From: Acidimicrobiia bacterium
Lineage (GTDB): Bacteria; Actinomycetota; Acidimicrobiia; Spongiisociales; UBA11373
Direction: 5' to 3'
Assembly (NCBI GenBank): GCA_016215655.1
Contig: JACRIT010000004.1
Coordinates: 13,492-77,491 of the forward strand
DNA length: 64,000 nucleotides
The translations under genes were made by a program, and so were the position numbers. The notes below the pieces were generated by a model that ran no database searches, was not told the origin of the DNA, and worked only from the letters and a program-made list of their open reading frames with translations. Below, in pieces: positions 1 to 45,730 of the stretch (the stretch's first letter is position 1; the number at the start of each line of letters is the position of its first letter).

Positions 1-87
1 CGATGGGTCTCTCGCTGGTGTTCAAGGAGTGGGATCTGGGAGCGGAGCTCGAAACGTGCGGGTGAGGGGCAAGGGGGAAGGGGCTAG

Positions 88-160
88 GGCGGACCGCAAT
101 TCGCAATTCGCAATTCGTCAGGAAGAGCGAAGGACGAAGAGCGAAGGCGAAGGGGTCGCG
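88..160. repeat. heptamer element 'A' (about 3 CGCAATT units, then about 4 GAAGRVC units)
   Basis: cgcaattcgcaattcgcaattcgtcag gaagagcgaaggacgaagagcgaaggcgaagg downstream of the DinB-like gene. Confidence 0.6.
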
Positions 161-216
161 TCGGGTTCCGGCACCCGGTGCTCGGCACCCCTGGCCTCTG
201 GCACCTGGTGCCTGGT

Positions 217-1505: not shown

Positions 1506-1569
1506 CGTGACGACGATAGGCGCCAGGCAACAGGTGTCGGGTCTCAGGTGTCAGATGCCCGAAACCGAC

Positions 1570-1630
1570 GCGACCTCTTCGCCCCTCGCTCTTCGCCCTT
1601 CTGACGAATTGCGAATTGCGAATCGCGGTC
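1570..1630. repeat. heptamer element 'B' (inverted copy of A: CTTCGCC-like units, then GAATTGC units)
   Basis: cttcgcccctcgctcttcgcccttctgacgaattgcgaattgcgaatcg is approximately the reverse complement of A. Confidence 0.6.
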
Positions 1631-1641
1631 CGCTCTCGCCC

Positions 1642-6589: not shown

Positions 6590-7528
6590 GTGGAGGTGCT
6601 CGCCGGCGTCGTCGCTGCTTCGGCGCCCCTCATCTACGCCGTCGTCGGCGAGACGATCACCGAGAAGGCGGGGGTGGTGAACCTGTCGCTCGACGGAAGC
6701 ATCATGCTCTCGGCGATGGTGGGGTTTGCCGCTGCGGCGACCTCCGGGAGCGTCATCGTCGGTTTCGTGGCGGCGATCGCGGTGTCGATGACCATTGCCG
6801 GGGTGGTTGCCTTCTCCGGCATCGCGCTCCGTCTCAACCAGATCGCCGTCGGCTTCGTGCTGTTCCTCCTCGCCAAGCAGCTGGCGCTCTTCTTCGGCGA
6901 TCCCTACATAGGGCGGACCGGCCCCCAGGTGGCGGCGTGGGACCTCCCGCTGCTCTCGGACATCCCGGTGGTGGGAGAGGTCTTCTTCTCCCACAACCTG
7001 TCGGTGTACGGCAGTTTCGTCGCGGTCATCGCCACCGGGTTCTTCCTCGCCCGCACCCGTCGCGGACTCGAGGTGCGCGCCGTCGGGGAGCGGCCCGAGG
7101 CGGCGCACGCCCGCGGCATCCCGGTGAATCGGGTGCGGTACGCAGCCACCCTGGTGGGCGGTGCCTTTGTGGGAATGGCGGGGGCGGCGGTCTCCCTCGA
7201 CCAGATCGCCGGGTGGAGGGAGAACCTCACCGTGAACCTCGGTTGGATCGCTCTGGCCTTCGTCATCTTCGGTGGATGGAACCCATGGCGGGTGGCGCTC
7301 GCCTGCCTGCTCTACCGCGGCCTGCTGTTCGTGGCGGGGGAGTTCCAGGTGGAGTTCCCCGAGTTCGTGCAGGTGCTCACCCAGCTCCCCTTCCTGCTGA
7401 TGATCCTGGCCCTGACCGTCCTCAACACCGAGCGGTTCCGCGTCGTTGCCAGGCGGTTCCCGCGCTTGCGACCGTTCCTCGCCGGCGAGGCCCCTACGGC
7501 ACTGGGCACGACGTTTCATCCGGAGTGA
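6590..7528 (+). CDS. ABC transporter permease (second)
   Basis: GTG start immediately after the permease-1 stop; multi-TM protein. Confidence 0.75.
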   Translation: MEVLAGVVAASAPLIYAVVGETITEKAGVVNLSLDGSIMLSAMVGFAAAATSGSVIVGFVAAIAVSMTIAGVVAFSGIALRLNQIAVGFVLFLLAKQLALFFGDPYIGRTGPQVAAWDLPLLSDIPVVGEVFFSHNLSVYGSFVAVIATGFFLARTRRGLEVRAVGERPEAAHARGIPVNRVRYAATLVGGAFVGMAGAAVSLDQIAGWRENLTVNLGWIALAFVIFGGWNPWRVALACLLYRGLLFVAGEFQVEFPEFVQVLTQLPFLLMILALTVLNTERFRVVARRFPRLRPFLAGEAPTALGTTFHPE

Positions 7529-7717
7529 GGAATCGCTCTACCCGCTGCCCGCTGCCAGCTTCCGGCTCAAGACCTCGTTACCCGTTACCCGTTACCCGTT
7601 GCCCGTTGCCCGTTGCCCGTTACCCGTTGCCCGACCCGTGATCGTCCGGTACCCGGCACCCGGCACCCGGCACCCGGCACCATCTGGCATCTGGCATCTG
7701 GCATCTGGCATCTGGTC
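7529..7717. repeat. modular heptamer tandem-repeat element 'C' (arrays of TTRCCCG, CACCCGG, CATCTGG)
   Basis: Three contiguous heptanucleotide arrays (about 4-7 units each) between convergent gene ends. The ORF-track translations through this region (PVTRCPTRDRPVPGTRHPAPGTIWHLASGIWHL) confirm the periodicity. Confidence 0.7.
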
Positions 7718-8758
7718 TCACCGCAGCATGCTCTCCACGGCGTCCACCAGCGCTCTGATCCACGCTCGATCGTCGTCGTCGAGCCGGGCGATGCCCTGCA
7801 TGCCTTCGAGCGCCGCGATCGCTTCGGCGATGAGGTCGGGAGCGGGCACGGCGTCGACGAGGGAGAGGAGGGTGGCGACCGTGGCGGCATCGTCCGAACC
7901 CTCCCGGTCGAATCGCCATGATCGCGGAGGTGCCGTACAGGCCGCATCGATCAGGGCGGTCAGATGGTCGGCGAGCGCCGCCATCCGGGAATGGTCGAGG
8001 AGTTCGGGTCGATCGTGCGGAGAGTGGTACACAGCAGACCGACCACCCGTATAGAAGAGGTGGGGGATCCCTGCGGCGCGAAAGGCGAGGTGGTCGGACA
8101 GGGGAGTCACCACCCAGTCGGCGATGGGCCGGGGCACGATCCCGGCGATGTCGGGCACATGCACCGCCGGCACGAGACCCGGGGCGAGGTCGGCGCCGGC
8201 CACGAAGATCGTGGCCGCCACCTCGGTGGGTGTATCGGCCGTCCCGATGTCGTGGCCGACGAGGTCGAGGCAGATCATGAGCTCCACGTCGGACAGCGGC
8301 ACGGTGGGGTGGTCCACCCACCACTGCGAGCCCATGTCGGGCGAATCGAACCAGGGCGGTTCCTCGGCGTCGAAGGCGCAGACCAGGATGGAACGGCCGC
8401 GGCGGGTTTCTCTGGCCAACCGGCCCGCCACCTCGACGAGCACCGCCACCCCTGCGGCGTTGTCGTCGGCGCCGGGATGGATGGTGCCGGAGATCTCTCC
8501 GAGATGGTCGTAGTGGGCGCCGAACACCACCCAACCGGGGGCCTTGCCGGGGATGGCGCCGAGGACATTGGCGCCGGCCATGGCGGGGAGGAGTTGCAGG
8601 TACCCGTGCTCGCCCCTGGGTTCGAGACCGGAGGCTGTGAAGGCCTCCACGAGCATGGCGCGAGCCGCCGCGCCGCCTGGAGATCCAGCTGCTCGTCCGG
8701 CGAGTGCCGGGGCGCACAGGGCCTCCACGACGCGGCGCATTCGGTCGATGGGGGTCAT
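7718..8758 (-). CDS. M28 family metallopeptidase (aminopeptidase)
   Basis: 346 aa with M28 zinc-binding motifs (HYDH, DDNAAG, EE). Confidence 0.75.
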   Translation of the reverse strand: MTPIDRMRRVVEALCAPALAGRAAGSPGGAAARAMLVEAFTASGLEPRGEHGYLQLLPAMAGANVLGAIPGKAPGWVVFGAHYDHLGEISGTIHPGADDNAAGVAVLVEVAGRLARETRRGRSILVCAFDAEEPPWFDSPDMGSQWWVDHPTVPLSDVELMICLDLVGHDIGTADTPTEVAATIFVAGADLAPGLVPAVHVPDIAGIVPRPIADWVVTPLSDHLAFRAAGIPHLFYTGGRSAVYHSPHDRPELLDHSRMAALADHLTALIDAACTAPPRSWRFDREGSDDAATVATLLSLVDAVPAPDLIAEAIAALEGMQGIARLDDDDRAWIRALVDAVESMLR

Positions 8759-8762
8759 CGAT

Positions 8763-10004
8763 TCAGCCTACGGCCGGATTCGCCCCGGGTTTGTCATGAC
8801 GCCGCGCCGCGACCAGGAACGGGATCGCAATCGCCTGGGTTGCGCCAGCCACCAGATACGAAGCGCCGAACCCCCAGGCATCGGCGGATCGCCCGAGCAG
8901 CGGCTGGGCGACGACGCTCCCGGACGACCCCATGAGCGCCACGAATGACAGGACCGTGGCCCGCTCTCCGGAGGAGATGTGGCTGTTGAGGTAGGCCTGC
9001 CGCACCGGCACCGCGGCGGCGAAGCCGACCGCCCAGATCACGAGCAACGCCACCGCCCATCCGAAGTGCTCGGTGACTCCCATGAGACCGAGGGCGACGG
9101 TGCCGATCACCACGGCGCCGATGAGTACTTCGGTGCGCCGCTCCGTCATCCGCAGAACCGTGGTGGCAAGAAGACCGCCCGCGATCTGGGCGCCGGCGAG
9201 TACCGCCGCCGCCAGCCCGGCGATGCCGAATGCGGTGTCGTCGCCGTACAGCTCGAGCAGGTAGGGCTGCATCGCATAGAAGACATACAGGCTCACCCCG
9301 ACGGTGAAGGGCGTCGCCAGCATCATCCACCGCACCGGGGGATGGCGCCAGCCACCAGCGATCGAGGTCCGCAGTACCCGGCGTATCTCGTCGGCGGTGC
9401 GTTCGCCGCGCTTGGGTGCGAACCCGATGTCGTGCATCGCCACCGCCGCGACGACAAAGGTCAGGGCGAGTACTCCGCTGCGAACCAGGTAGGGGACCGC
9501 CAGATTCGTCACCTGGGCCAGGTATCCCCCGGCCACGGTCCCGGCGAGCATGGCGATGCCGCCGATGGTCTGGCCCCGACCGAACACGGCGGCGAGGTCA
9601 CCGGCGAAACCCGTGGAGGCGAGGGCGTCGACCAGCCACGCCTCGACGGCTCCGGAGAAGAACGTGAACCCGAGTCCGATGGCGGCCGAGGCCACCGCCC
9701 ATCCCCACAGGGGGGCCTCGATCTGCCACATGAGGAGATAGGCCAAGGTGGCGGCGAAGAGCGTTGCCGCACCCAGGAGAAACGAGGCACGACGGCCCCT
9801 GGTGTCGGCGACGACCCCGGTCGGCACCTCGAAGATCACCATTCCGAGAGCGAAGAAGGCGTTGGCGACGAAGGCCTCGGTGGTGGTGAGGCCGGCATCG
9901 AGCAGGAACAGGGTGTTGACCCCCCAGATGAACGACGCCGCCAGCGTGCTCAGCAGGGTCAGCAGGAGATAGGTGCGCTGCACGGCGCGTACGGCAGGGG
10001 GCAC
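8763..10004 (-). CDS. MFS transporter
   Basis: 413 aa with 12 predicted TM segments and MFS-type loops. Confidence 0.8.
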   Translation of the reverse strand: MPPAVRAVQRTYLLLTLLSTLAASFIWGVNTLFLLDAGLTTTEAFVANAFFALGMVIFEVPTGVVADTRGRRASFLLGAATLFAATLAYLLMWQIEAPLWGWAVASAAIGLGFTFFSGAVEAWLVDALASTGFAGDLAAVFGRGQTIGGIAMLAGTVAGGYLAQVTNLAVPYLVRSGVLALTFVVAAVAMHDIGFAPKRGERTADEIRRVLRTSIAGGWRHPPVRWMMLATPFTVGVSLYVFYAMQPYLLELYGDDTAFGIAGLAAAVLAGAQIAGGLLATTVLRMTERRTEVLIGAVVIGTVALGLMGVTEHFGWAVALLVIWAVGFAAAVPVRQAYLNSHISSGERATVLSFVALMGSSGSVVAQPLLGRSADAWGFGASYLVAGATQAIAIPFLVAARRHDKPGANPAVG

Positions 10005-10142
10005 GGGAAGACGCTACCGGCTTCCCGCTCCCAGCTGCCGGCTTCCGGCACGAGTCGTTGCCCGTTGCCCGTCGCCCGTCGCCTGTCGTCCGTCACCCGG
10101 AACCCAACGGGCATCTGGCATCTGCCGCGTACCTAGTCTCGC
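10005..10142. repeat. modular heptamer tandem-repeat element 'D' (same module order and orientation as C)
   Basis: Shares the leader ctaccggct.cccgct.ccagct.ccggc, then YGCCCGT units, CACCCGG and CATCTGG units; lies in a divergent promoter region. Confidence 0.65.
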
Positions 10143-10517
10143 GTGCCCACCTACGCTCGCGCCATGTACGAGACCCCGGCCGGTCCTGCTGCGGAGTTGC
10201 CACCCGGTGTGGTGCATGGTGCCGGGAGATTCGCCGTCGGCAACGACGACGGCGAACGTTTTGCCCTCACCCGGCGGTGCCGCCACCTGTTTGCCGATCT
10301 CGCTGCGGGGACGATCGATGACGGCTGCCTCACCTGCCCGTGGCATGGATCGCAATACGACATCGCCACCGGCAAGATGGTGCGCGGTCCGGGCGGAGCC
10401 TTCGGCGCCATCCCCGGGCTGGCGCAGTCGGTGAAGGCCGTGGCCAACGTCGTGCCCCTGGGACGCGGCGTGGTGGTCGAACGCGACGGCGAGCTCTTCG
10501 TGCATCGAGCCGAGTAG
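10143..10517 (+). CDS. Rieske [2Fe-2S] domain protein
   Basis: Rieske cluster-ligand boxes CRH...CPWHG; alternative ATG at 10164. Confidence 0.7.
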   Translation: MPTYARAMYETPAGPAAELPPGVVHGAGRFAVGNDDGERFALTRRCRHLFADLAAGTIDDGCLTCPWHGSQYDIATGKMVRGPGGAFGAIPGLAQSVKAVANVVPLGRGVVVERDGELFVHRAE

Positions 10518-28451: not shown

Positions 28452-28702
28452 GCGAAAAGACTAGGACCGGGATGGAAAACCCAAGGAAATCAACGAAAAC
28501 TCCCGGGGCCATGAGCTGACCCGAGGTGGGTTGGCACCACATAGCGGGGGGAAGGTGTTGTAATAGAGGTGAGCGGTCGGCGCCGGACACGGATCGGTCT
28601 TCCCCCACTCCCCAGTTCCGTGCCGGCGCTACCGCTTATTTCCCCCTTGTGTCGGTGCCACCCCCTGCCACAATCCCTGGTTCACGACACGGATGGAGTC
28701 AC

Positions 28703-30109
28703 ATGGCCAAGGCCAACATCGATCTCGGGAAGTACCAGCTGGGCTGGTCGGACACCGAGGCCGAGTACGTCTTCAAGCCCAAGAAGGGCTTGAACGAGGC
28801 CATCATCCGCGAGATGTCCGCCATGAAGCGCGAGCCCGCCTGGATGCTCGCCTTCCGGCTCAAGGCCTACGAGCGGTTCCTGCGCAAGCCGGTTCCCACC
28901 TGGGGCGGCGGAGGCATGCTCGACGAGATCGACTTCGACGACATCTACTACTACATCAAGCCGATGGAGGGCCAGGCGAAGGACTGGGACATGGTGCCCG
29001 AGTCCATCAAGAACACCTACGAGAAGCTGGGGATCCCTCAGGCCGAGCGCAAGTATCTCGCCGGCGTCACCGCCCAGTACGAGTCGGAGGTCGTCTACCA
29101 CCGCAATCGGGAGGACCTCGAGGGCCTCGGCGTGCTGTTCTGCGACATGGACACCGCGCTGCGCGAGTACCCCGACATCGTTCGACAGTACTTCGGGACG
29201 ATCATCCCTCCCAACGACAACAAGTTCGCCGCGCTGAACTCGGCGGTGTGGTCCGGGGGATCGTTCATCTACGTACCGCCTGGGGTCCATGTCGATCAAC
29301 CGCTTCAGGCGTACTTCCGCATCAACGCCGAGAACATGGGCCAGTTCGAGCGCACGCTGATCATCGTCGATGAGGGGGCCTACTGCCACTACGTCGAGGG
29401 GTGCTCTGCCCCGACGTACTCGAGCGACTCGCTCCACTCCGCGGTGGTGGAGATCGTGGTGAAGGCGGGCGGCCGGTGCCGGTACACGACGATCCAGAAC
29501 TGGTCGAACAACGTCTACAACCTGGTCACGAAGCGTGCTGCCGCCTACCGCAATGCCACGATGGAGTGGATCGACGGGAACCTGGGGTCGAAGCTGACCA
29601 TGAAGTACCCGGCCGTCTGGCTGATGGAAGAGGGCGCTCACGGCGAGGTGCTCTCGATCGCCTTCGCCGGCAAGGGCCAGCATCTCGATGCCGGGGCCAA
29701 GATCGTCCATGCCGCTCCCCGCACGACGTCGCTGATCACCTCGAAGTCCATCTCGAAGGATGGGGGTCGCGGCGGATATCGCGGGCTGGTCCGGGTGGAA
29801 AACGGCGCCGAAGGGGTGAAGTCGTTCGTCCGCTGTGACGCCCTCATCCTCGACGACAAGAGCCGGTCCGACACCTACCCGTACATGGAGATCGAGGAGG
29901 CCGATGCCCAGATCGGCCACGAGGCCACGGTGTCGAAGGTGGGCGACGACCAGTTGTTCTACCTGATGAGCCGCGGGCTCACCGAGCCTCAGGCGACGGC
30001 GATGATCGTGGCGGGCTTCATCGAGCCGATCGTCAAGGAGCTCCCCATGGAGTACGCCGTCGAACTCAACCGCCTCATCGAACTGCAGATGGAGGGGTCG
30101 GTCGGCTAG
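28703..30109 (+). CDS. sufB: Fe-S cluster assembly protein SufB
   Basis: ATG after GGATGGAG; canonical SufB sequence over the full length. Confidence 0.9.
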
Positions 30110-30182
30110 GAACCCGGTCTCCGGTCACCAGGCCGGACTGGAGACTGGTGACTGGTGACCTCTGGACGAGTAGCCTCGCCCG
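30110..30182. repeat. heptamer element 'F' (GACTGGW units)
   Basis: ggactggagactggtgactggtgacc immediately after the sufB stop. Confidence 0.6.
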
Positions 30183-30665
30183 ATGTACCTCGACCTCATC
30201 GCCCGTGCCTTTCGTCGCAACGATCGGATCGTCGCGGCCCACGCCGAAGGCCTCACGGATACCGATGCCCTGCGCCAGTCGGGCTTCAACACGAACTGCC
30301 TCAACTGGGTGCTTGGGCACATCGTGGCCGGACGCGACGAGATCCTGAGCGTGCTCGGCCAACCCGTCGTCGCCGGGGATCGCGTGGCCCGCTACCACCG
30401 GGAGTCCGATCCGATTCGCGAGGACGGTCCGGGTGTGATCCCGATGACCGAGTTGCTCGTGCTCCTCAACCAGCAGAGCGATCGCATCGTCGCCGCTCTC
30501 GATGGCGCCGACGACGCCTTCATGGAGGTCGAGGTCGCCGCCGGAGAAGGACGGGCGGTGAGCCGTGCCGGGCAGGTGCTCTTCTTCTACTTCCACGAGA
30601 CCTATCACGTCGGACAGACCGACGTGATCCGACAGCTCAGCGGGAAGTCGGACAAGATCATCTGA
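30183..30665 (+). CDS. DinB_2 family (mycothiol-dependent-enzyme-like) protein
   Basis: 160 aa with a DinB-type helical bundle and His triad. Confidence 0.55.
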   Translation: MYLDLIARAFRRNDRIVAAHAEGLTDTDALRQSGFNTNCLNWVLGHIVAGRDEILSVLGQPVVAGDRVARYHRESDPIREDGPGVIPMTELLVLLNQQSDRIVAALDGADDAFMEVEVAAGEGRAVSRAGQVLFFYFHETYHVGQTDVIRQLSGKSDKII

Positions 30666-30782
30666 GCGAGGAAGTCGCCAGTCCCCAGTCTCCAGTCCCC
30701 ATCAGGAACACGAGCAAGCTCTGTCGGGTAGCGGGCAACGGGCAACGCAACCGAGGACTGGTGATCGCCTAGGGGTGACTGC
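30666..30782. repeat. heptamer element 'G' (CCAGTCY units, inverted relative to F, plus GGGCAAC units)
   Basis: ccagtccccagtctccagtcccc, then gggcaacgggcaacg, then ggactggtga. Confidence 0.6.
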
Positions 30783-31598
30783 TCATTCCAGCAAGTGCCT
30801 CAGCGCCTCGCGGAAGTCCTCGGCGAGGTCGGGGCGGGCGAGGCCGACGGCGGCGGTGGCTTCGAGAAGGCCGGCGGGACGGCCGATATCGAGAAGGTCA
30901 TCGCCGACGATGAGTCCGAATGCCCCGCCGCGGCGGGCGGCGCGATCGAGCGCATCGGTGAGCTGGATCTCGCCGCCGTGGCCGGGGGAGAGTGCGGCGA
31001 GGTCGGCGAAGATCTCGGCGGTGAACACATATCGTCCGACAAGGCCGAGGTCTGACGGTGCTTCGGCGCCAGGCTTCTCCACGGCCGCCTCGATCTCGAC
31101 GACGTCACCCATCACGTTCTCCCCGATCGCCACGATGCCATAACGGTCGAAGAAGTGGGCGGGGACCCGTCGCACCGCCGCCACGGGGCGGCCATCGAAG
31201 AGCGACACGAGGCGTGGGGTGAATGATCGGCCGGGTCGGGGGAACATGTCCGAGAGCAGGCAGACGAAGGGTCGATCACCGACCGCATCGCGGGCTCGCA
31301 GCACCGCATCACCCAGGCCGAGCGGGTGGGTCTGGATGACCGACCGGAACGTCACGGACTCCAGGCCCGGCACCGCATCCCCACCGACGAAGTGGGCGAC
31401 GACCGGATCCCCGGGGCGCTCGTCGACGATGAGGATGATCTCGGTGACCCCGGCCGCGGCGGCCTCTTCGACGACATATTGGATCACCGGTCGATCGACG
31501 ACGGGAATCAGGGGCTTGGGCACCACCCGCGTCGCCGGGCGCATCCGCGTGCCACTCCCGGCGCAGGGGATGACCGCGACGGTGACGGGGGTGGGCAC
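30783..31598 (-). CDS. galU: UTP--glucose-1-phosphate uridylyltransferase-like sugar nucleotidyltransferase
   Basis: N-terminal VIPCAGSGTRMRP nucleotidyltransferase motif; GalU-like length. Confidence 0.7.
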   Translation of the reverse strand: MPTPVTVAVIPCAGSGTRMRPATRVVPKPLIPVVDRPVIQYVVEEAAAAGVTEIILIVDERPGDPVVAHFVGGDAVPGLESVTFRSVIQTHPLGLGDAVLRARDAVGDRPFVCLLSDMFPRPGRSFTPRLVSLFDGRPVAAVRRVPAHFFDRYGIVAIGENVMGDVVEIEAAVEKPGAEAPSDLGLVGRYVFTAEIFADLAALSPGHGGEIQLTDALDRAARRGGAFGLIVGDDLLDIGRPAGLLEATAAVGLARPDLAEDFREALRHLLE

Positions 31599-31604
31599 GG
31601 GGCA

Positions 31605-31705
31605 AGGGTACCGGAAGGAGTATTCAGTCCTCAGTCTTCAGAATGAGAACCTTGTTCGGGCTGACGACTGATGACTGATGACTGATGACTGATGACTGAT
31701 GACTC
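31605..31705. repeat. heptamer element 'H' (CAGTCYT units plus about 6 CTGATGA units)
   Basis: In the divergent region between galU and nucS; the array ends 18 nt upstream of the nucS ATG. Confidence 0.7.
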
Positions 31706-31722
31706 GTTTACCCTCCGACGCC

Positions 31723-32388
31723 ATGCGACTGCTGGTGGCCAGGTGCTCGGTCGACTACACGGGTCGCCTTGCGGCGCATCTCCCCATGGCGATACGACTC
31801 ATCATGGTGAAGGCCGACGGATGCGTGGCGATCCATGCCGACGGCGGCGCCTACAAGCCCCTCAACTGGATGAACGCGCCGAATCACCTCGAGGAATCGC
31901 CGGGACGGTGGGTGGTCACCAATCCCAAGGGCGAGAGCCTGGTGATCACCCTCGAGGACGTCATCGAAGACCGGTCCATCGAACTGGGGCCGGATCCGGG
32001 CCTCGAGAAGGACGGTGTCGAGAGGACGCTGCAGCATCTGCTCGCCGACCGGGCCGCGGTGATCGAGCCCGGCCTGGAGATCCTCGAGCGGGAGTACGCC
32101 ACCGACCTCGGTCCCGTCGACCTGTTGTGCCGCGACATCGGCGGCCAGGTCGTCGCCGTGGAGATCAAGCGTCGCGGTGAGATCGACGGTGTCGAGCAAC
32201 TCACCCGGTACCTCGAACGTCTCAATCGCGACACCACGCTCGCTCCCGTGCGCGGCATCCTTGCCGCCATGACCGTCACCCCGCAGGCCCGGACGCTGGC
32301 CGCGGCGAGGGGCATCGGCTGGGTCGAGGTCGACTACGACCTGCTGCGCGGCCTGGAGGGCAGGGCGCCGCGGTTGTTCGAGGTGTGA
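31723..32388 (+). CDS. nucS: endonuclease NucS (EndoMS, mismatch-specific)
   Basis: [16 protein letters not shown]... aligns over the full length with mycobacterial NucS; an alternative ATG at 31699 lies inside the last CTGATGA unit. Confidence 0.85.
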
Positions 32389-32466
32389 GTCCTCAGTCCT
32401 CAGTGAGAGGATCGAAGAGCGGAGAGAGCCGACGATCACTCTGTCTGATGACTGATGACTGATGAC
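32389..32466. repeat. heptamer element 'I' (CAGTCCT units plus about 3 CTGATGA units; direct repeat of H)
   Basis: Between the convergent nucS and sigma-factor stops. Confidence 0.65.
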
Positions 32467-33399
32467 TCAAAGCAGGCTCTCCAGGTCGAATCCGCTCGAG
32501 GGGTGGCGCAGCTTGGCGAGGGCCCTGCCTTCGATCTGTCGGACTCGTTCCCGGGTGAGATCGAATGCCTTGCCGACATCGGACAGGGTTCGCGGCGGGG
32601 TCCCATTCAGGCCATATCGCTGCACGATCACGGCGCGCTCCTGTTCGTCGAGCGCGGTCATCGCCGATTCGAGTTGGCGGCGGGCGGAAGCACCGGCGGC
32701 GACCTCAAAGGGGTCGAGTGCTGCCTCGTCTTCGACGAAGTCACCGAGTTCGGCATCGCCGTCCGTTCCGACGGGACGCTCCAGCGACACGGTGTCACCG
32801 GGAGTCGTGAGCGCAAAGGCGACCCGTTCCAGGTCGAGACCCGACACCAGGGCGATCTCCTGCATGGTCGGCTGGCGCCGGAGCCGCTCTTGCAGGCTCA
32901 GCGCCGTCTCCTGGACGGTGCGCACCACATCGACCATGTGCACCGGGAGGCGGATCGTCCGGCCCTGGTTTCCCAGACCGCGGGTGATGGCCTGGCGAAT
33001 CCACCACGTCGCATATGTGGAGAACTTGAAGCCCTTTCGCCAGTCGAACTTCTCCACGGCTCGGATCAGTCCGAGGTTGCCCTCCTGCACGAGGTCGAGC
33101 AGGTCGAGGCCACGGCCGGTGTAGCGCTTGGCGATCGAGATGACGAGGCGGAGGTTGCTCCGGATGAACTCCGCCTTGGCCTCGTCGGCAGCGTGGATGT
33201 CGCGATACAGGCGGGCTCGTTCCGTCGGGGTGAGGCGGCCCTTGACGTCGAGGGTCTGCTGGGCACGCCGGCCGGCTTCCATCGCCCGTGACAGCCGGAC
33301 TTCATCCTCGGCGGTGAGCAGGTCATGGGCAGCGACGGATTCGAGGTACATCCCGATGCCGTCGGACAGTGGTGCCGTTTCGCGCAGCCGCTTGGCCAC
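32467..33399 (-). CDS. RNA polymerase sigma-70 family factor (group 2, SigB-like)
   Basis: Regions 1.2, 2 (DLVQEGNLGLIRAVEKFD), 3 and 4 present; GTG start after GGGAGGAG. Confidence 0.85.
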   Translation of the reverse strand: MAKRLRETAPLSDGIGMYLESVAAHDLLTAEDEVRLSRAMEAGRRAQQTLDVKGRLTPTERARLYRDIHAADEAKAEFIRSNLRLVISIAKRYTGRGLDLLDLVQEGNLGLIRAVEKFDWRKGFKFSTYATWWIRQAITRGLGNQGRTIRLPVHMVDVVRTVQETALSLQERLRRQPTMQEIALVSGLDLERVAFALTTPGDTVSLERPVGTDGDAELGDFVEDEAALDPFEVAAGASARRQLESAMTALDEQERAVIVQRYGLNGTPPRTLSDVGKAFDLTRERVRQIEGRALAKLRHPSSGFDLESLL

Positions 33400-33592
33400 G
33401 GACTCCTCCCTGGGAGGGCAAGACGGTATCACCGGCTCATTCCGGGCTGCAACCGGTGTCCCCAACCTGGGTGTGGACAGCCGGATCGACTCATCCACAG
33501 GGGATACCCCGTGCCCACTCGAATCGCGGTGAGTTGTCCACAGCGACGGCCCGGCACCTTTCCCCAAGGCCAGGGGCCCCTAGGGTGCCGCC

Positions 33593-34270
33593 ATGGACGA
33601 CCTCGCCGCCCGCATCGCCTCCTGCCGGGCTTGTCCCCGGCTGGTGTCGTGGCGGGAACGCGTCGCCCGGGAAAGGCGGGCCGCCTTTGCCGGTGAGGAG
33701 TACTGGGGACGGCCCGTGCCCGGATTCGGTGATCCCGCAGGGCGACTGCTGGTGGTGGGTCTGGCTCCGGCGGCGCACGGCGCCAATCGCACCGGCCGAA
33801 TGTTCACCGGTGACCGTTCCGGAGACTGGTTGTTCCGGGCCCTCCATCGCTCCGGTTTCGCCAGCCAGCCCACGTCGACGGGTCGAGACGATGGGCTGCG
33901 GCTGCGGGACTGCTGGATCACCGCTGCGGTGCGCTGCGCCCCGCCGGGAAATCGGCCGGAACCGGACGAGCGCGAGCGATGCCGGCACTGGCTGGAGGAG
34001 GAACTCGACCTGCTTCGGGACGTGCGGGTGGTCGTCTGTCTCGGCCAGCTGTCATGGACGGCCATGCTCGGGCTCTTCGCCGACCGTGGTGTCGTCGTGC
34101 CTCGGCCGCGACCGGCGTTTCGACACCTCGCCGTCGTGGAGACCTCGGGACCGACGATCGTCGCCTCCTATCACCCGAGCCAGCAGAACACCTTCACCGG
34201 AAGGCTCACCGAGGACATGCTCGACGCGGTGTTCACCCGGGTGCGGGCGATCCTCCCCGATCTTGGGTAG
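33593..34270 (+). CDS. uracil-DNA glycosylase, family 5 (UdgB-like, 4Fe-4S)
   Basis: GLAPAAHG motif A and Cys ligands (CRACPRL ...). Confidence 0.7.
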   Translation: MDDLAARIASCRACPRLVSWRERVARERRAAFAGEEYWGRPVPGFGDPAGRLLVVGLAPAAHGANRTGRMFTGDRSGDWLFRALHRSGFASQPTSTGRDDGLRLRDCWITAAVRCAPPGNRPEPDERERCRHWLEEELDLLRDVRVVVCLGQLSWTAMLGLFADRGVVVPRPRPAFRHLAVVETSGPTIVASYHPSQQNTFTGRLTEDMLDAVFTRVRAILPDLG

Positions 34271-34321
34271 GGGCACCCGCGCCGATACCATGCCGGGTCG
34301 TCGAGCCGAGGTCCTGCCGCG

Positions 34322-35548: not shown

Positions 35549-35877
35549 CCCTTCGGGTGCGCCTCGCCGCGCTTGCCGACCTTCCGGTGGGGAAGGGGAC
35601 CTGTGTCGCCGTCGCCGGACACCGCATTGCGATCTTCCGCTTCGGCGACGCCATCCATGCCATCGGTGATCGCTGCAGCCATGCCGAGGCGTCGCTCGCC
35701 GAGGGTGAGGTGTTCGATGGAACGGTCGAGTGCCCCCGGCACGGATCGGCGTTCGATCTGATCACCGGCATCCCGGTCTCGCTCCCTGCCACCCGGCCGG
35801 TGGAGGTCTACGCGATCGAAGTCGTCGACGGCGAGGTGTTCACGACGCTCGACCCGATCGTCGAGGACGAGTCATGA
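35545..35877 (+). CDS. Rieske [2Fe-2S] ferredoxin (suf-associated)
   Basis: CSH...CPRHG boxes; ATGA overlap with both sufD and sufC. Confidence 0.75.
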   Translation: MTLRVRLAALADLPVGKGTCVAVAGHRIAIFRFGDAIHAIGDRCSHAEASLAEGEVFDGTVECPRHGSAFDLITGIPVSLPATRPVEVYAIEVVDGEVFTTLDPIVEDES

Positions 35878-36635: not shown

Positions 36636-36894
36636 GAAGCGCGATGCGCAATGCGCAATGCGCAATGCGCAAGTCCCGGAGGCCGCAATTCGCAACTCGC
36701 AATTCGCACGACGCGTGCCACACACCGGGCGCGTCTGGCGAATTGCGCCGAGAACCGCTCTCTGTCCCGGATCCCGAGCCATGCGACTACGTCCCAAGAG
36801 CGGACAGGGACTGACGAATTGAGCATTGCGGGCTCTGACAGACGGCCGTGCGGAGACGCCTAGCCTTCCCTCAGATTGCGAAGGAGGACGCCGG
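36636..36894. repeat. structured repeat 'J' (GCGCAAT and GCAATTC arrays plus a GAATTGC-box core, inverted relative to K and M)
   Basis: The reverse complement of J's core aligns at about 80% with the core of M (cccgcaatg..caa.tcgtcagtccc...atggctcgggatc.gggac...ggttctcggcgcaattcg). Confidence 0.65.
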
Positions 36895-38274: not shown

Positions 38275-38443
38275 GCAGGGCGGCCGCCGGAGGCGGCCAC
38301 CGCAATTCGTCAGTCCCGCGGCTCGCGTCGGGTCGGTTCGATTGGCTTGGGACCTGGGACTGCGGCCGCCGCTCGGCGCAATTCGTTAGGCGCCCCAGGC
38401 CCAGGCGCGACGCTCTGACGAATTGCGAATTGCGAATTGCCTT
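38275..38443. repeat. structured repeat 'K' (GAATTGC-box core ending in about 3 GAATTGC units)
   Basis: About 70% identical to M over about 140 bp; abuts the left inverted repeat of the IS30 element. Confidence 0.65.
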
Positions 38444-39645: not shown

Positions 39646-39675
39646 GCAGCGAATTGCGAATTGCCAATCGCCGCC
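39646..39675. repeat. GAATTGC array 'L' (right flank of the IS30 element)
   Basis: gcagcgaattgcgaattgccaatcgcc. Confidence 0.6.
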
Positions 39676-40584: not shown

Positions 40585-40622
40585 GCCGGGTACCAACCCC
40601 GCTCCGGGCTCCGGGGTTGCAC

Positions 40623-41102: not shown

Positions 41103-42300
41103 GGAGTGCAGCGACGAGCACGTCGACCTCGCCCGGCACGTTGTAGAGATAGAACGACGCCCGGGCGGTGGCCGGGACGTCGAGCACCCGCATGAGGGGC
41201 TTGGCGCAATGGTGCCCGGCGCGCACCGCGACCCCGGATTGATCGAGGATGGTCGCCAGATCGTGGGGGTGGATGTCGGCAAGGGTGAACGACACGGCAC
41301 CGCCGCGCTGGGCGGTGTCGTCGGGTCCATACACGGTGAGGTCGGGGATCTCCGCAAGCCGGTCGAGGGCATACCGGGTGATCTCACGCTCGTGGTCGCG
41401 GACCCGATCCATGCCCACGGCCTCCAGGTAATCGACCGCGGCGCCGAACCCCACCGCTTCGGCGATGGGCGGGGTCCCTGCCTCGAACTTGTGCGGGAGA
41501 TCGGCCCAGGTGGAGGAGTGGAGCTGGACGTCACGGATCATCTCACCGCCGCCCTCGGCGGGTTCCATCTCCTCGAACCGATCGCGACGACCCCACAGCG
41601 CTCCGACGCCGGTGGGACCAAGCATCTTGTGGGCGCTGAAGGCGAGGAAGTCGGCACCGATGGCTCGAACATCGGTGGGGTGATGGGGGACCAACTGGGC
41701 AGCATCGATCACGGAGATCGCACCGACCGCGCGCGCCGCCGCCACGGCTTCGGCGAGCGGGCCGATCGTGCCGAGGACGTTCGACATGCCCGAGAAGGCA
41801 ACGATCTTGACGCGAGAGTCGATGACATCGCCGATGGCGCCCACATCGACGCGGAAGTCGGCGGTCAATGGCAGGTACGTCAGTTCGGCACCGGTCACCC
41901 GGGCGACCAGCTGCCAGGGCACGATGTTGGCGTGATGTTCCATCGTCGTGAGGGCGATGCGGTCACCGGGTTGGAGGTGGTGCAGCCCCCAGCCATAGGC
42001 GACGGCATTGATCGCCGACGTGGTACCCCGGGTGAAGACGACCTCTTCGGGCGCCGCCGCATTGATGAAGCGGGCCACGCGGCGGCGGGCCCCCTCGTAG
42101 AGCTCGGTCGCCTCCTCGGCCATGGTGTAGGCCCCGCGGTGCACATTGGCGTTGTGATGGCGGTAGTAGTCGTCCATGGCATCGAGGACTTGAACCGGCT
42201 TCTGGGTGGTGGCGGCGCTGTCGAGGTAGACGAGCGGCTTGCCATGCACCTGCCGGTCCAGGATGGGGAAGTCGGCGCGGAGGTGGGAGAGATCTAGCAC
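41071..42300 (-). CDS. sufS: cysteine desulfurase SufS
   Basis: ADFPIL N-terminus, PLP lysine SAHKMLGPTG, active-site HHCAKPL; GTG start chosen; the track ORF extends to 42462. Confidence 0.85.
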   Translation of the reverse strand: MLDLSHLRADFPILDRQVHGKPLVYLDSAATTQKPVQVLDAMDDYYRHHNANVHRGAYTMAEEATELYEGARRRVARFINAAAPEEVVFTRGTTSAINAVAYGWGLHHLQPGDRIALTTMEHHANIVPWQLVARVTGAELTYLPLTADFRVDVGAIGDVIDSRVKIVAFSGMSNVLGTIGPLAEAVAAARAVGAISVIDAAQLVPHHPTDVRAIGADFLAFSAHKMLGPTGVGALWGRRDRFEEMEPAEGGGEMIRDVQLHSSTWADLPHKFEAGTPPIAEAVGFGAAVDYLEAVGMDRVRDHEREITRYALDRLAEIPDLTVYGPDDTAQRGGAVSFTLADIHPHDLATILDQSGVAVRAGHHCAKPLMRVLDVPATARASFYLYNVPGEVDVLVAALHEARRLFGVA

Positions 42301-42349
42301 GGCCCCAGCCCCCAGTCCCCGGTCCCCAGTCCGGGGGGGTGAAGCCTCA
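42301..42349. repeat. heptamer array (CCCCAGT/CCCCGGT, about 3 units) in the sufC-sufS intergenic spacer
   Basis: ccccagtccccggtccccagtcc lies between two genes of the same operon. Confidence 0.55.
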
Positions 42350-43105: not shown

Positions 43106-43359
43106 CGGGGTTGGAGGATACGGGTGGGTTGGTCGGTAGCCAAGGTCGGCCGCCTGGGGGCGGCCTCCCGCAATGTGCAACTCGTCAGTCCCGGTCCTCG
43201 CGCTGGATCGGGTCGTATGGCTCGGGATCTGGGACCGACAGTGGTTCTCGGCGCAATTCGTCAAACGTGCGCTGGCTCCCGGACGCGTCTCACGAATTGC
43301 GAATTGCGCTCCCGGGATTGACGAGCTGCGGATCTGGCGTCTCGCCTGTCCGCTCACCC
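43106..43359. repeat. structured repeat 'M' (GAATTGC-box core plus GAATTGC units)
   Basis: Aligns with K (direct orientation) and with the reverse complement of J. Confidence 0.65.
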
Positions 43360-45638: not shown

Positions 45639-45644
45639 TCGGGA

Positions 45645-45705: not shown

Positions 45706-45730
45706 TCTCGGAGCTCCGGAACTCTGCGAC

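What the first reader, a model, noticed from the sequence alone, without database searches (positions are those of the whole stretch)
7529..10142. Family of modular intergenic elements made of tandem heptanucleotide arrays; direct copies C and D bracket an M28-peptidase plus MFS-transporter gene pair
Elements C (7529-7717) and D (10005-10142) share the same architecture and orientation: a leader ctaccggct.cccgct.ccagct.ccggc, then a YGCCCGT/TTACCCG array, a CACCCGG array and a CATCTGG array, with different copy numbers. Related modules recur at 14 or more other intergenic sites in this 64-kb window (A, B, E, F, G, H, I, J, K, L, M, the suf spacer, and 45645-45705), using at least eight different 7-nt units. 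A dense, polymorphic heptamer-array repeat family of this kind is not a standard annotated feature class. Its units are much shorter than mycobacterial MIRU-type tandem repeats, and the family differs from REP/BIME-type elements in being built from several array types; it could be a MITE-like mobile or recombinogenic element, or an RNA/DNA structural element.
Basis: seen in the sequence. Interest (0 to 1): 0.8.

Follow-up and report, generated by a model that had tools for sequence, protein, structure and literature searches.

The report
Heptamer satellite arrays filling intergenic spacers
The spacers between genes in this Acidimicrobiia genome are packed with fast-changing tandem arrays of 7-base units, a bacterial microsatellite of a kind already known from cyanobacteria and a few other groups, and not a mobile cassette around the peptidase and transporter genes.

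Summary
The window (67.8% GC, an Acidimicrobiia MAG) has 29 period-7 tandem blocks against 3.5±2.2 in shuffles. Of the 708 array bases, 702 lie in the 7% of the window that is intergenic. C and D are paralogous composites in the same order and strand: CCCGCTN, then CCCGTYR, then CACCCGG, then CATCTGG.

The arrays change by whole-unit slippage. In five near-identical sequence pairs from different samples, every indel inside an array is a 7-nt step (+7, −7, −14, +21) or sums to one.

Orthologous spacers in relatives also hold arrays. They differ in units, copy numbers and sometimes orientation, while neighbouring spacers within one genome share units. This looks like satellite-type concerted evolution.

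The M28+MFS pair is not a cassette. The gene order is kept in relatives, and one relative has MFS without M28, Rieske or arrays at these two spacers.

No inverted ends, target duplications or Rfam match were found, and C and D show no RNA structure.

The class is known: cyanobacterial STRRs, Mrázek's heptanucleotide long SSRs, and the Xanthomonas/Nostoc and Beggiatoaceae heptamers. I found no description of it in Acidimicrobiia. Function is unproven and is probably near-neutral, with side effects on transcript ends and promoter spacing.

The parts
7529..7717 (+). Element C. It fills the whole spacer between the convergent permease and M28 genes. Module order is L, T, P, H.
   Evidence: lag-7 autocorrelation 0.73; RNA fold z +1.84 (+ strand) and -0.55 (- strand), so unstructured
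7538..7567 (+). C module L ('leader'): CCCGCTG CCCGCTG CCAGCTT CCGGCT, a degenerate CCNGCTN array
7574..7633 (+). C module T: CCCGTTA/CCCGTTG x8.3
   Evidence: (score 88-102)
7646..7682 (+). C module P: CACCCGG (= CCCGGCA) x5.1
7680..7716 (+). C module H: CATCTGG (= TCTGGCA) x5.0, perfect. It ends 1 nt before the M28 stop codon.
10005..10163 (+). Element D. It fills the whole divergent spacer between the MFS start and the Rieske start. Same order and strand as C, with fewer and more decayed units.
   Evidence: lag-7 0.56; fold z -0.15 and -0.85
10014..10048 (+). D module L: CTACCGG CTTCCCG CTCCCAG CTGCCGG CTTCCGG
10055..10099 (+). D module T: CCCGTTG x2, CCCGTCG x2, then the decayed units CCTGTCG and TCCGTCA
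10108..10126 (+). D module H: CATCTGG x2.1-2.7
65..216 (.). Element A: AGGGGCA x3.6, CGCAATT x3.3, GAAGAGC x4.6, then degenerate GGCACCY units. It is an inverted homologue of B.
   Evidence: A versus rc(B): local alignment of about 90 nt that includes non-repeat linkers, score 106 against a shuffle maximum of 31
1506..1641 (.). Element B (Pirin | ceramidase spacer): CTTCGCC x3.6 and CGAATTG x3.3, the inverse of A
30110..30182 (.). Element E (SufB | DinB_2 spacer): GGTCWCC x2, a loop, then GACTGGW x3.4, forming a hairpin
   Evidence: fold z -2.6 and -3.2
30666..30782 (.). Element F (DinB_2 | NTP-transferase spacer, convergent): AGTCNCC x4.1 (same unit as CCCCAGT) and CGGGCAA x2.3
31599..31722 (.). 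Element G (NTP-transferase | NucS spacer, divergent): TCAGTCY x2.6, a loop, then CTGATGA x6.3
   Evidence: fold z -3.75 on the - strand
32389..32466 (.). Element H (NucS | sigma spacer, convergent): TCAGTCC x2.4, a loop, then CTGATGA x3.3. It is a direct copy of the G architecture.
   Evidence: fold z -3.8
36636..36825 (.). Element I (SufC | FumC spacer): GCGCAAT x4.9 and CGCAATT x3.6, with an inverted CGAATTGCG partner that makes a hairpin
   Evidence: fold z -2.6
38275..38441 (.). Element J (downstream of FumC): an inverted homologue of I over about 140 nt, ending in CGAATTG x3.1
39650..39672 (.). Element K: CGAATTG x2 plus a decayed unit. It is the other half of the J array, split off by the IS30-family insertion.
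   Evidence: (direct repeat D3, 91% identity, spacing 1231)
42298..42349 (.). Element L (SufS | second SufC spacer): CCCCAGY/CCCCGGT x4.3
43230..43330 (.). Element M: a CGCAATTCG ... CGAATTG x2.3 hairpin element, homologous to I and J
6590..7528 (+). Context gene: ABC permease (BPD_transp_2). Its stop codon abuts C.
7718..8758 (-). Context gene: M28 peptidase
8763..10004 (-). Context gene: MFS transporter
10164..10517 (+). Context gene: Rieske [2Fe-2S] protein, 117 aa as in its homologues

Best explanation
C, D and the other array-bearing spacers are a bacterial satellite: STRR-like heptanucleotide long simple-sequence repeats.

**Shown.** Arrays gain and lose whole 7-nt units between near-identical strains. 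This is the signature of strand slippage at replication or repair.

**Inferred from the sequences.**
- Point mutations create variant units, and slippage then amplifies them locally. Blocks of related units ('modules') therefore lie side by side.
- The C/D units form a chain of single-base steps: CCCGCTG, CCCGTTG, CCCGTTA or CCCGTCG, CCCGGTA, CCCGGCA, TCCGGCA, TCTGGCA (= CATCTGG).
- Whole composites, linkers included, are copied or homogenised between spacers 1-3 kb apart, in either orientation. Short-range recombination or template switching would do this. As a result each genome has its own locally uniform set of units, while orthologous spacers in relatives differ.

**Trait level.** The 7-nt preference belongs to a lineage, not to a unit sequence. 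Relatives range from very rich to chance level. This points to a trans-acting property of replication or repair, which was not identified here.

**Effect on the cell (inferred, not tested).** Probably close to neutral filler of unconstrained spacers, with side effects. Arrays make up whole 3' regions and the whole divergent MFS/Rieske promoter spacer. Array-plus-inverted-array pairs form hairpins at gene ends. Inverted copies flanking genes are possible substrates for rearrangement.
For: **Period specificity and location**
-.

**7-nt step indels in five near-identical pairs**
- L001/L081, 98.5% nt identity over 3.08 kb: +7, -6, -14, +1, all four inside C or D.
- L096/L114, no mismatches: +7 in the array, plus a 1-nt change in a C run outside it.
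- L142/L162: +7, -7, +21.
- L106/L124: +7 in the array; the other small indels lie in a poorly aligned stretch near the alignment end.
- L113/L163: 3+4 in the array; four other indels lie outside it.

**Unit turnover at orthologous spacers**
- C in L001/L081 keeps L and T but has GCGCATT in place of P and H.
- Spacers F, G and H carry different units in the window, L090, L091 and L093.

**Uniformity within a genome and similarity of neighbours**
- The three best of 91 element pairs are all adjacent pairs (A-B, I-J, C-D). My arithmetic gives about 0.002 for that by chance.
- L091 uses GCTGTCA in F, G and H, its complement in I, and related units in the EamA|NifU spacer.

**Lineage-level trait**
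- Rich loci have 7-84 array bases per kb. Seventy-four other Acidimicrobiia-like loci pooled (1.18 Mb) have 0.76 per kb.

**Unit identity is not special**
- Permuted control heptamers occur as x3 arrays in viral contigs about as often as the window's units: 0, 2, 4 and 40 hits against 2, 3, 5 and 5.

**Dispensability**
- L002/L092 has short spacers with decayed relics at C, F, G and H.

**Precedent**
- Heptamers are the most abundant long-SSR class in many genomes, and polymerase slippage has been proposed as the cause. These are Mrázek et al. 2007 as summarised in PMC4679880 and PMC4692102.
Against: **Slippage alone does not cover everything**
- It does not explain the L-then-T-then-(P/H) polarity that recurs in at least four non-orthologous spacers: C, D, L093 F, and G of L093, L090 and L121.
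- It does not explain the recurrent 'CAAGAG'-type punctuation between modules, seen in roughly a quarter of 54 junctions by my reading of the list.
- It does not explain why C and D are flipped relative to their flanking genes in L084.

**Hints that function may matter**
- The same spacers (F, G, H) hold arrays in nearly every relative although the units differ. A function that does not depend on unit sequence could produce this.
- CGCAATT x3 recurs in a distant MAG, L029, whose permease is 57% identical.

**Gaps**
- No trans-acting factor was identified.
- No expression data exist.
Confidence: 0.6

Rival explanations
1. The composites are non-autonomous mobile elements (MITE- or REPIN-like). 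A related reading is that they mark a mobile M28+MFS cassette. On this view an enzyme encoded elsewhere inserts them into spacers.
For: - The same ordered composite occurs in non-orthologous spacers and in several genomes.
- Copies occur in both orientations: A/B, I/J and E/F are inverted pairs, and C and D are flipped in L084.
- Non-repeat linkers are shared between copies.
- A metagenome scan found matches to the L-then-T pattern in at least 120 contigs, a few of them chance matches in coding sequence.
Against: - No terminal inverted repeats or target duplications were found in C or D, and homology between copies runs from gene end to gene end with no defined element ends.
- Gene order around C and D is ancestral, and MFS exists without arrays in L002, so there is no cassette.
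- L and T units differ by one transition and are often interleaved within one array (L111, L118, L157). Their adjacency therefore needs no transposition.
- Other module orders exist (L167, L169).
- The only transposase in the window is an IS30-family element that has inserted into an array and has its own ends.
Confidence: 0.15
2. The arrays are G-quadruplex or i-motif forming regulatory repeats of the Xanthomonas/Nostoc GGGNATC type. They would act on transcription or on mRNA ends.
For: - On the minus strand, modules L, T and P of C and D read (CAGCGGG), (YAACGGG) and (CCGGGTG). That gives 15 or more G3 tracts spaced 4 nt apart in C.
- AGGGGCA (element A) and ACTGGGG (elements F and L) also qualify.
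- ACTGGGG is the same unit as Nostoc GGGGACT (PMC4692102).
- The G-rich strand is the sense strand downstream of M28 and the antisense strand upstream of the Rieske gene, as in the positional rule reported in that paper.
Against: - About half of the units have no G3 or C3 run: CATCTGG, CGCAATT, GCGCAAT, CTGATGA, GACTGGT, TCAGTCC, GAAGAGC.
- G-strand orientation relative to genes is inconsistent across spacers. A and F are C-rich on the sense strand of one flanking gene.
- Copy numbers show no preference for four.
- Relatives replace G3 units with non-G3 units at the same spacer.
Confidence: 0.1
3. The arrays are selected cis-elements whose function does not depend on unit sequence. Candidates are transcript-end hairpins or terminators, Rho-loading sites, insulators between convergent or divergent genes, or contingency-type tuners of promoter spacing.
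For: - E, G, H and I fold well below shuffles, with z from -2.6 to -3.8.
- L029 has many hairpins made of an array and its inverted copy.
- No canonical intrinsic terminators or sigma-70 promoters are found in these spacers.
- Spacers F, G and H keep arrays in nearly all relatives although the units change.
- D occupies the whole divergent promoter spacer.
- C is C-rich and unstructured directly after the permease stop codon, which is rut-like.
Against: - C and D have no structure.
- C-rich versus G-rich orientation relative to the upstream gene is inconsistent: B and L are G-rich on the transcript, A and F are mixed.
- Arrays occur in convergent, divergent and tandem spacers alike.
- L002/L092 and L083 manage with short spacers that lack arrays.
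- The flanking genes are housekeeping genes, not the surface or antigenic genes typical of contingency loci.
Confidence: 0.12
4. The arrays are an assembly artefact.
For: Some contigs end inside arrays (L082, L100, L146, L163). Short-read assemblers do struggle with these repeats.
Against: Orthologous arrays appear in independent assemblies from different samples and pipelines (NCBI MAGs, JGI, ENA, Logan). Their flanks are conserved and their differences are in 7-nt steps.
Confidence: 0.01

Closest known systems
Cyanobacterial STRR sequences (short tandemly repeated repetitive heptamers such as STRR1 CCCCAGT; Mazel et al. 1990, cited from my own knowledge; mentioned in PMC4692102)
   Same: - 7-nt units in head-to-tail arrays.
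- Many dispersed intergenic sites.
- Several unit types per genome.
- Copy number varies between strains.
- The STRR1 unit itself is present here: CCCCAGT at 42303-42332 and AGTCCCC at 30673-30701.
   Different: - The host is a high-GC Acidimicrobiia bacterium, not a heterocystous cyanobacterium.
- The dominant units differ (CCCGCTN, CCCGTYR, CACCCGG, CATCTGG, CGCAATT).
- As far as I know, composite spacers with a recurring module order and 'CAAGAG' punctuation have not been described for STRRs.
Heptanucleotide long simple-sequence repeats (Mrázek, Guo and Shah 2007, as summarised in PMC4679880 and PMC4692102)
   Same: - Heptamers are the dominant long-SSR class.
- They are enriched in large, high-GC genomes of non-pathogens, some Actinobacteria included.
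- They are intergenic.
- The proposed origin is polymerase slippage.
   Different: - That work is a statistical census.
- It does not describe modular composites, similarity between neighbouring spacers, orientation flips or unit turnover between relatives.
- Acidimicrobiia were not sampled as far as I can tell (the paper is not held).
GGGNATC / GGGGA(C/T)T quadruplex-forming repeats of Xanthomonas and Nostoc (Rehm et al. 2015, PMC4692102)
   Same: - Intergenic heptamer arrays of 2 to 26 units.
- Transcribed, and under-represented in ORFs.
- One unit is shared (GGGGACT).
- The L, T and P modules are G3N4 on one strand.
   Different: - Half of the units here cannot form G-tracts.
- There is no preference for four copies.
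- Several unit families sit in one spacer.
TAACTGA direct repeats of marine Beggiatoaceae, cyanobacteria and Bacteroidetes (MacGregor 2015, PMC4679880)
   Same: - Intergenic heptamer arrays with a patchy phylogenetic distribution.
- The window's CTGATGA/GACTGAT unit is one mismatch from AACTGAT.
- That unit also places stop and start codons in all three frames next to a start codon (nucS).
   Different: - There, one unit dominates and sits just upstream of start codons in one orientation.
- Here there are many units, in all spacer types and in both orientations.
REP/BIME/REPIN elements and MITEs
   Same: - Dispersed and intergenic.
- Sometimes arranged as inverted pairs.
- The CGCAATT elements I, J and M contain hairpins.
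   Different: - C and D have no palindromic unit.
- There are no terminal inverted repeats or target duplications.
- The repeat unit is 7 nt and tandem.
- No RAYT-like gene was seen in the window.
Eukaryotic satellite and minisatellite DNA, with concerted evolution and 'library' dynamics
   Same: - Variant units are amplified in blocks.
- Units are homogenised within a genome and turn over between lineages.
- A shared library of units is deployed differently in different genomes.
   Different: - The arrays are tiny (20-190 nt), lie in bacterial gene spacers, and have a strict period of 7 nt.

Membership tests
STRR-like / heptanucleotide long SSR arrays | Head-to-tail tandem repeats with a 7-nt unit | tested here: met
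   TRF finds period 7 with 83-100% matches. There are 29 blocks against 3.5 in shuffles.
STRR-like / heptanucleotide long SSR arrays | Many dispersed sites, confined to non-coding DNA | tested here: met
   13 spacers carry arrays, and 702 of 708 array bases are intergenic.
STRR-like / heptanucleotide long SSR arrays | Several unit types in one genome | tested here: met
   At least 15 canonical units are present.
STRR-like / heptanucleotide long SSR arrays | Copy number differs between strains in whole units | tested here: met
   Five near-identical pairs show 7, 14 or 21-nt indels. The window's own species was not sampled twice.
STRR-like / heptanucleotide long SSR arrays | Cyanobacterial host (STRR in the strict sense) | tested here: not met
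   The closest relatives are Acidimicrobiia MAGs. The window therefore belongs to the wider heptamer-SSR class, not to STRR sensu stricto.
MITE / composite transposon around M28+MFS | Terminal inverted repeats and target-site duplications | tested here: not met
   No inverted repeats bound C or D. Homology between copies has no discrete ends.
MITE / composite transposon around M28+MFS | Bracketed genes absent as a unit between the same neighbours in relatives | tested here: not met
   The gene order is kept in L084, L081 and L001. L002 lacks M28 and the Rieske gene but keeps MFS.
REP/BIME | Imperfect palindromic unit of about 20-40 nt that forms a stem-loop | tested here: not met
   C and D have fold z from +1.8 to -0.85. 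Only I, J and M (the CGCAATT elements) and E, G and H have hairpins.
REP/BIME | Associated RAYT transposase in the genome | not testable with these tools
   Only 64 kb of the genome is available.
MIRU-VNTR | Unit of about 40-100 bp in actinobacterial intergenic regions | tested here: not met
   The unit is 7 nt.
G-quadruplex heptamer repeats (Rehm type) | At least four G3 tracts separated by short loops | tested here: inconclusive
   Met by the L, T and P modules and by AGGGGCA and ACTGGGG. Not met by CATCTGG, CGCAATT, CTGATGA, GACTGGT or GAAGAGC.
G-quadruplex heptamer repeats (Rehm type) | Quadruplex folding shown biophysically | not testable with these tools
   This needs CD or NMR.
Phase-variation (contingency) SSR loci | SSR in the promoter or ORF of a surface or virulence gene, with copy number switching expression | tested here: inconclusive
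   D fills a divergent promoter spacer, but the genes are an MFS transporter and a Rieske protein. Arrays also sit at 3' ends. Expression was not tested.
Known RNA families (Rfam 15) | Match to a covariance model | tested here: not met
   No match at the gathering score or at E ≤ 0.1 across the whole window.

The most novel reading that the evidence does not exclude
The arrays may be more than passive slippage products. On this reading they are an actively propagated prokaryotic satellite system. Ordered composites (CCCGCTN, a 'CAAGAG' separator, CCCGTYR, CACCCGG, CATCTGG) would be copied between spacers in either orientation by a dedicated, lineage-restricted activity. That activity could be a template-switching or reiterative polymerase, a repair activity, or an unrecognised transposase. 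Its gain or loss would explain why sister lineages are either saturated with heptamer arrays or free of them. It would also explain the long-standing question of why the period is 7.
Probability: 0.12. Interest if true: 0.8.

Novelty: new member of a known kind. Interest (0 to 1): 0.4.

Why it matters
Heptamer arrays have been noted in bacteria since 1990. They are the commonest long SSR class in many genomes, yet neither the reason for the 7-nt period nor any function is established.

This clade offers a clean comparative system.
- Close relatives with conserved gene order range from very rich (7-84 array bases per kb) to chance level.
- Whole-genome comparison of rich and poor sisters could therefore identify the responsible replication or repair factor.
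- The orthologous spacers give a direct view of array birth, unit turnover, local homogenisation and decay.

In practice the arrays break short-read assemblies, and they could serve as strain markers for uncultured Acidimicrobiia.

If the arrays are only neutral slippage products, the finding is an extension of a known phenomenon to a new lineage.

Tried and rejected
**Searches that found nothing**
- Rfam at gathering score and at E ≤ 0.1: no match.
- tRNA/tmRNA scan: none.
- Consensus promoter and terminator scans of 1-11 kb and 28-46 kb: at or below shuffle level, with nothing in the spacers.
- Exact look-up of the window's M28 protein: not on record. A 100% identical NCBI protein does exist on a 79.5-kb contig.
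- Mrázek 2007 could not be read, so it is cited only through two papers that summarise it.
- Literature searches for heptamer repeats in Acidimicrobiia or Actinobacteria found nothing specific.

**Ideas tested and dropped**
- *M28+MFS as a cassette.* Rejected by synteny.
- *A Rho-loading (C-rich, unstructured) role as a general explanation.* Rejected because strand orientation relative to the upstream gene is inconsistent.
- *G-quadruplex as a general explanation.* Rejected because half the units lack G-tracts.
- *The specific units are universally favoured heptamers.* Suggested by CGCAATT, CATCTGG, CCCGCTA and CCCCAGT arrays in viral contigs of 27-65% GC. Rejected after permuted controls gave similar or higher counts: 4, 40, 0 and 2.
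- *Inversion of the NTP-transferase gene in L092 by recombination between flanking arrays.* The flanking inverted repeat is only 27 nt with score 27, within the shuffle range. Left as an observation.
- *A 21-nt in-frame echo of heptamer slippage in coding DNA.* Lag-21 autocorrelation in genes equals that of other multiples of three.

Full report
**What is there**

The window is 67.8% GC. Its proteins are closest to MAGs labelled Acidimicrobiia. The permease next to element C is 93% identical to one in CAYYIA010000118 (L001). The M28 peptidase is 100% identical to an NCBI 'Acidimicrobiia bacterium' protein on a 79.5-kb contig.

TRF reports, for element C:
- CCCGCTG x2.9 at 7541-7560
- CGTTACC x8.3 at 7576-7633
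- CCGGCAC x5.1 at 7646-7681
- CATCTGG x5.0 at 7681-7715

For element D it reports CGTCGCC x6.3 at 10056-10099 and GGCATCT x2.1 at 10110-10124.

C fills the whole 189-nt spacer between the convergent permease and M28 genes. D fills the whole 159-nt spacer between the divergent MFS and Rieske genes. The Rieske ATG is at 10164, which gives the 117 aa seen in its homologues.

C and D align directly over about 88 nt. The local score is 71, against a maximum of 31 in 300 shuffles of the A and B spacer sequences.

**More than chance**

- By one fixed criterion the window has 29 period-7 blocks, against 3.5±2.2 (maximum 12) in 40 dinucleotide shuffles. Periods 5 and 8 are at chance level. Periods 6 and 9 reflect coding periodicity.
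- Of the 708 array bases, 702 lie in the 7.1% of the window that is intergenic.
- Pooled spacer autocorrelation is 0.380 at lag 7, 0.345 at lag 14 and 0.336 at lag 21, against about 0.265 elsewhere. In genes lag 7 is 0.262.
- Thirteen of 29 spacers of at least 40 nt are strongly 7-periodic. They include convergent, divergent and tandem gene pairs.
- They cluster at 0-10 kb and 30-43 kb.
- The site at 45639-45730 is a plain hairpin, not a heptamer array.
- At least 15 canonical units are used.

**Anatomy**

The units fall into a few families in which members differ by one or two bases.

| Family | Elements | Notes |
|---|---|---|
| YCYGNNN | C, D | See the chain below |
| GACTGNN | E, F, G, H, L | GACTGGT, GACTGGG (= CCCCAGT), GACTGAG, GACTGAT (= CTGATGA) |
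| NCGCAAT | A, B, I, J, K, M | CGCAATT, GCGCAAT |
| GAAGNNC | A, B | |

The C/D units form a chain of single-base steps: CCCGCTG, CCCGTTG, CCCGTTA or CCCGTCG, CCCGGTA, CCCGGCA, TCCGGCA, TCTGGCA. The last is a rotation of CATCTGG. The intermediate TCCGGCA (= CATCCGG) is seen in L001 and L084.

Module junctions carry small phase breaks of 3-5 nt (read).

C and D have no unusual single-strand structure, with z from +1.84 to -0.85. E, G, H and I pair an array with a partly complementary array and fold well below shuffles, with z from -2.6 to -3.8. In the distant MAG L029 most arrays are built this way. No Rfam family matches anywhere in the window.

**They change by whole units**

Five near-identical sequence pairs from different samples differ inside arrays only by 7-nt steps.

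| Pair | Identity | Indels |
|---|---|---|
| L001 / L081 | 98.5% nt over 3.08 kb, 19 substitutions | +7, -6, -14, +1; all four inside C or D |
| L096 / L114 | no mismatches in 1,079 nt | +7 in the array, plus a 1-nt change in a C run |
| L142 / L162 | 97.8% | +7, -7, +21 |
| L106 / L124 | 96.3% | +7 in the array; other small indels in a poorly aligned stretch near the alignment end |
| L113 / L163 | 96.4% | 3+4 within one array; four other indels outside it |

This is direct evidence for slippage-type gain and loss of units in natural populations.

**Comparison with relatives, and the cassette idea**

The order DEAD helicase-Rieske-MFS-M28-permease-permease-ABC-Bmp-Pirin-ceramidase-DinB is kept in L084 (permease 92% identical, M28 66%). 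It is also kept in L081/L082 and L001. L002 (permease 86%) keeps MFS between the permease and the helicase. It lacks M28, the Rieske gene and arrays at these spacers. C and D therefore do not delimit a mobile M28+MFS unit.

The orthologous spacers are nonetheless array-filled in L001, L081, L084 and L104:
- C in L001/L081 keeps CCCGCTK and CCCGTTR but has GCGCATT where the window has CACCCGG and CATCTGG.
- D in L001/L081 has all four modules.
- D in L104 has L, T and P followed by ATCTGAY.
- In L084 both C and D carry the same kinds of unit (GACGGGC, CCGGGTA, CCAGATG/CCGGATG) but on the opposite strand relative to the flanking genes.

**A second orthologous region gives the same picture**

Around nucS the gene order SufB-DinB_2-NTP-transferase-NucS-sigma-UDG-SufD-Rieske-SufC-FumC-EamA-NifU-SufS-SufC-luciferase is conserved in L090 to L093. 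Spacers F, G and H hold arrays in nearly every genome, but the units are specific to each genome:
- the window has GACTGNN;
- L091 has GCTGTCA in F, G and H, its complement in I, and related units in the EamA|NifU spacer;
- L093 has CATCTGG, CCGGATG and CCTGRTR, plus full L-then-T composites in F and G;
- L090 has GCCGGGT, and CCCGCTR followed by CCCGTCG in G.

The FumC|EamA spacer of L091 carries (CGAATTG)x10 where the window has element J. The sigma|UDG spacer, which has conserved non-repeat sequence, carries arrays only in L091, where it is expanded to 571 nt. L092, from the same genome as L002, shows short spacers with decayed relics in F, G and H, and strong arrays in M.

**Neighbours resemble each other**

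Within the window, the three best-scoring of 91 element pairs are all adjacent spacers:
- A and the reverse complement of B (a local alignment of about 90 nt that includes the non-repeat linkers GGGCNAGNGCGGAC and GGTCGCGTCGG);
- I and the reverse complement of J (about 140 nt);
- C and D.

By my arithmetic the chance of that is about 0.002. G/H (direct) and E/F (inverted) behave the same way.

**A lineage trait that is widespread**

Array density is 7-84 bases per kb in the window, L001, L081, L084, L090 to L093, L029, L045, L051 and L010. It is 1.5 in L083 and 3.6 in L002. It is 0.76 (chance level) in 74 other Acidimicrobiia-like loci totalling 1.18 Mb.

Among the 80 loci examined, GC ranged from 0.40 to 0.75, with 38 between 0.65 and 0.70. 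A few hits are chance matches in coding sequence. In those loci perfect period-7 arrays number 218, against 0-32 for periods 5-11.

In these hits L and T units are often interleaved within one array. This fits their one-transition difference. A 'CAAGAG'-like separator recurs between modules in roughly a quarter of 54 distinct junctions, by my reading of the list.

The L-then-T-then-(P/H) polarity recurs in at least four non-orthologous spacers: C, D, L093 F, and G of L093, L090 and L121. Other orders also exist (L167, L169).

**Are the units special?**

CGCAATT x3, CATCTGG x3, CCCGCTA x3 and CCCCAGT x3 occur in 2, 3, 5 and 5 viral contigs of 27-65% GC. Composition-matched permuted heptamers gave 4, 40, 0 and 2 hits. 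The window's units are therefore not unusually common. Heptamer arrays of many sequences exist broadly. What is lineage-specific is the period and the density.

**Most likely mechanism**

- *Shown.* The arrays are strictly period-7, intergenic, and polymorphic in unit steps. Units turn over between relatives and are uniform within a genome.
- *Inferred.* Slippage adds and removes units. Mutated units are re-amplified into blocks. Short-range recombination or template switching copies composites between neighbouring spacers in either orientation. A trans-acting property of replication or repair sets the 7-nt preference, as Mrázek et al. proposed (via PMC4679880).
- *Effects on the cell.* These are untested. 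My best estimate is near-neutral filler with side effects on 3' ends, on promoter-proximal spacing (D, G) and on rearrangement potential.

The rivals (mobile element, G-quadruplex regulator, sequence-independent cis-function) each explain part of the data and fail on other parts. They are set out in their own entries.

**Comparison with what is known**

The class is that of cyanobacterial STRRs and heptanucleotide long SSRs. STRR1 (CCCCAGT) even occurs here as a unit. The Xanthomonas/Nostoc GGGNATC repeats and the Beggiatoaceae TAACTGA repeats are the best-studied relatives.

The arrays are not REP/BIME elements, MITEs or MIRUs. The defining features of each were tested and not met.

I found no description of this family in Acidimicrobiia. 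I file it as a new member of a known kind. It has some features that appear undescribed: module grammar, neighbour homogenisation and orientation flips. These deserve a genome-wide study.

Noticed in passing
window 38444-39646 (ORF 38487-39641, + strand): An IS30-family transposase (HTH_38 plus rve domains) with imperfect terminal inverted repeats of about 23 nt sits inside a CGAATTG array. Direct copies of the array flank it at 38419-38441 and 39650-39672. Relatives L090 to L092 have no IS at this FumC|EamA spacer. Either the IS targets these arrays or it simply landed in one.
   Followed up: partly
window 36684-36748, 38377-38441, 43252-43309; L091 7337-7571: The CGCAATT arrays belong to a dispersed element of about 80-140 nt (I, J, M). 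It has a CGCAATTCG ... CGAATTGCG hairpin and a shared non-repeat tail (CCGAGAACC.CT.TC.GTCCC). The same unit, at x10, sits in the orthologous FumC|EamA spacer of L091. CGCAATT x3 also occurs three times in the distant MAG L029. This subfamily looks more REP-like than C and D do.
   Followed up: partly
L092 9084-9899, compared with window 30783-31598: The NTP-transferase gene (75% identical protein) is inverted relative to its DinB_2 and NucS neighbours in L092, compared with the window, L090, L091 and L093. Its flanking spacers in L092 share only a weak 27-nt inverted repeat.
   Followed up: partly
window 31661-31705 and 32442-32469: nucS, the actinobacterial mismatch endonuclease, is flanked on both sides by CTGATGA arrays. 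These put TGA stops and ATG starts in all three frames. The real start is the ATG at 31723, eight codons downstream of the longest ORF, because homologues are 221 aa.
   Followed up: yes
L002 3485-3532 and 4741-4893: A relative with an 86% identical permease lacks both the M28 peptidase and the Rieske gene. These are exactly the two genes that adjoin C and D in the window. It keeps MFS and the DEAD helicase. Gene loss and array loss coincide at these spacers.
   Followed up: partly
L029 10976-11045, 11697-11757, 14049-14133, 16644-16700, 19151-19231: In this distant Acidimicrobiia MAG most heptamer arrays come as an array followed by its inverted complement. The resulting hairpins have 20-30-bp stems with 7-periodic sequence (units CAAGAGC/TCTTGRY and CGCGATA/TATCGCG). 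How both arms keep in step is unexplained.
   Followed up: no
metagenome loci L104, L127, L141, L143, L150, L158, L184 and others; window 7565-7575 and 10049-10055: A short 'CAAGAG / CAAGAC / GAAGAG'-like separator recurs between successive arrays in many unrelated contigs. In L029 and in window element A the same sequence is itself an array unit (CAAGAGC, GAAGAGC).
   Followed up: partly
viral contig IMGVR_UViG_3300032160_000019 (loci L224, L228, L234, L256, L260, L261): A heptamer chosen only as a permuted control (CACTCGC) turned out to form x3 arrays in 40 stretches of viral-contig DNA. One 40.7-kb contig carries ten matches in six stretches. Some viral or proviral genomes are themselves heptamer-rich.
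   Followed up: no
window 45639-45730: A 92-nt spacer between convergent genes folds into a long hairpin, GCGAGCAGCTTGCGGCC...CCGCGGGACTGCGAGCTGCTCGC (z -2.56).
   Followed up: yes
window 28526-43120: The suf genes are scattered. SufB is followed by DinB_2, an NTP-transferase, NucS, a sigma factor and UDG, then SufD, a Rieske-like ORF and SufC. Next come FumC, the IS and EamA, with SufS and a second SufC-like ATPase on the opposite strand. This order is conserved in relatives, so it is ancestral and was not caused by the arrays.
   Followed up: yes
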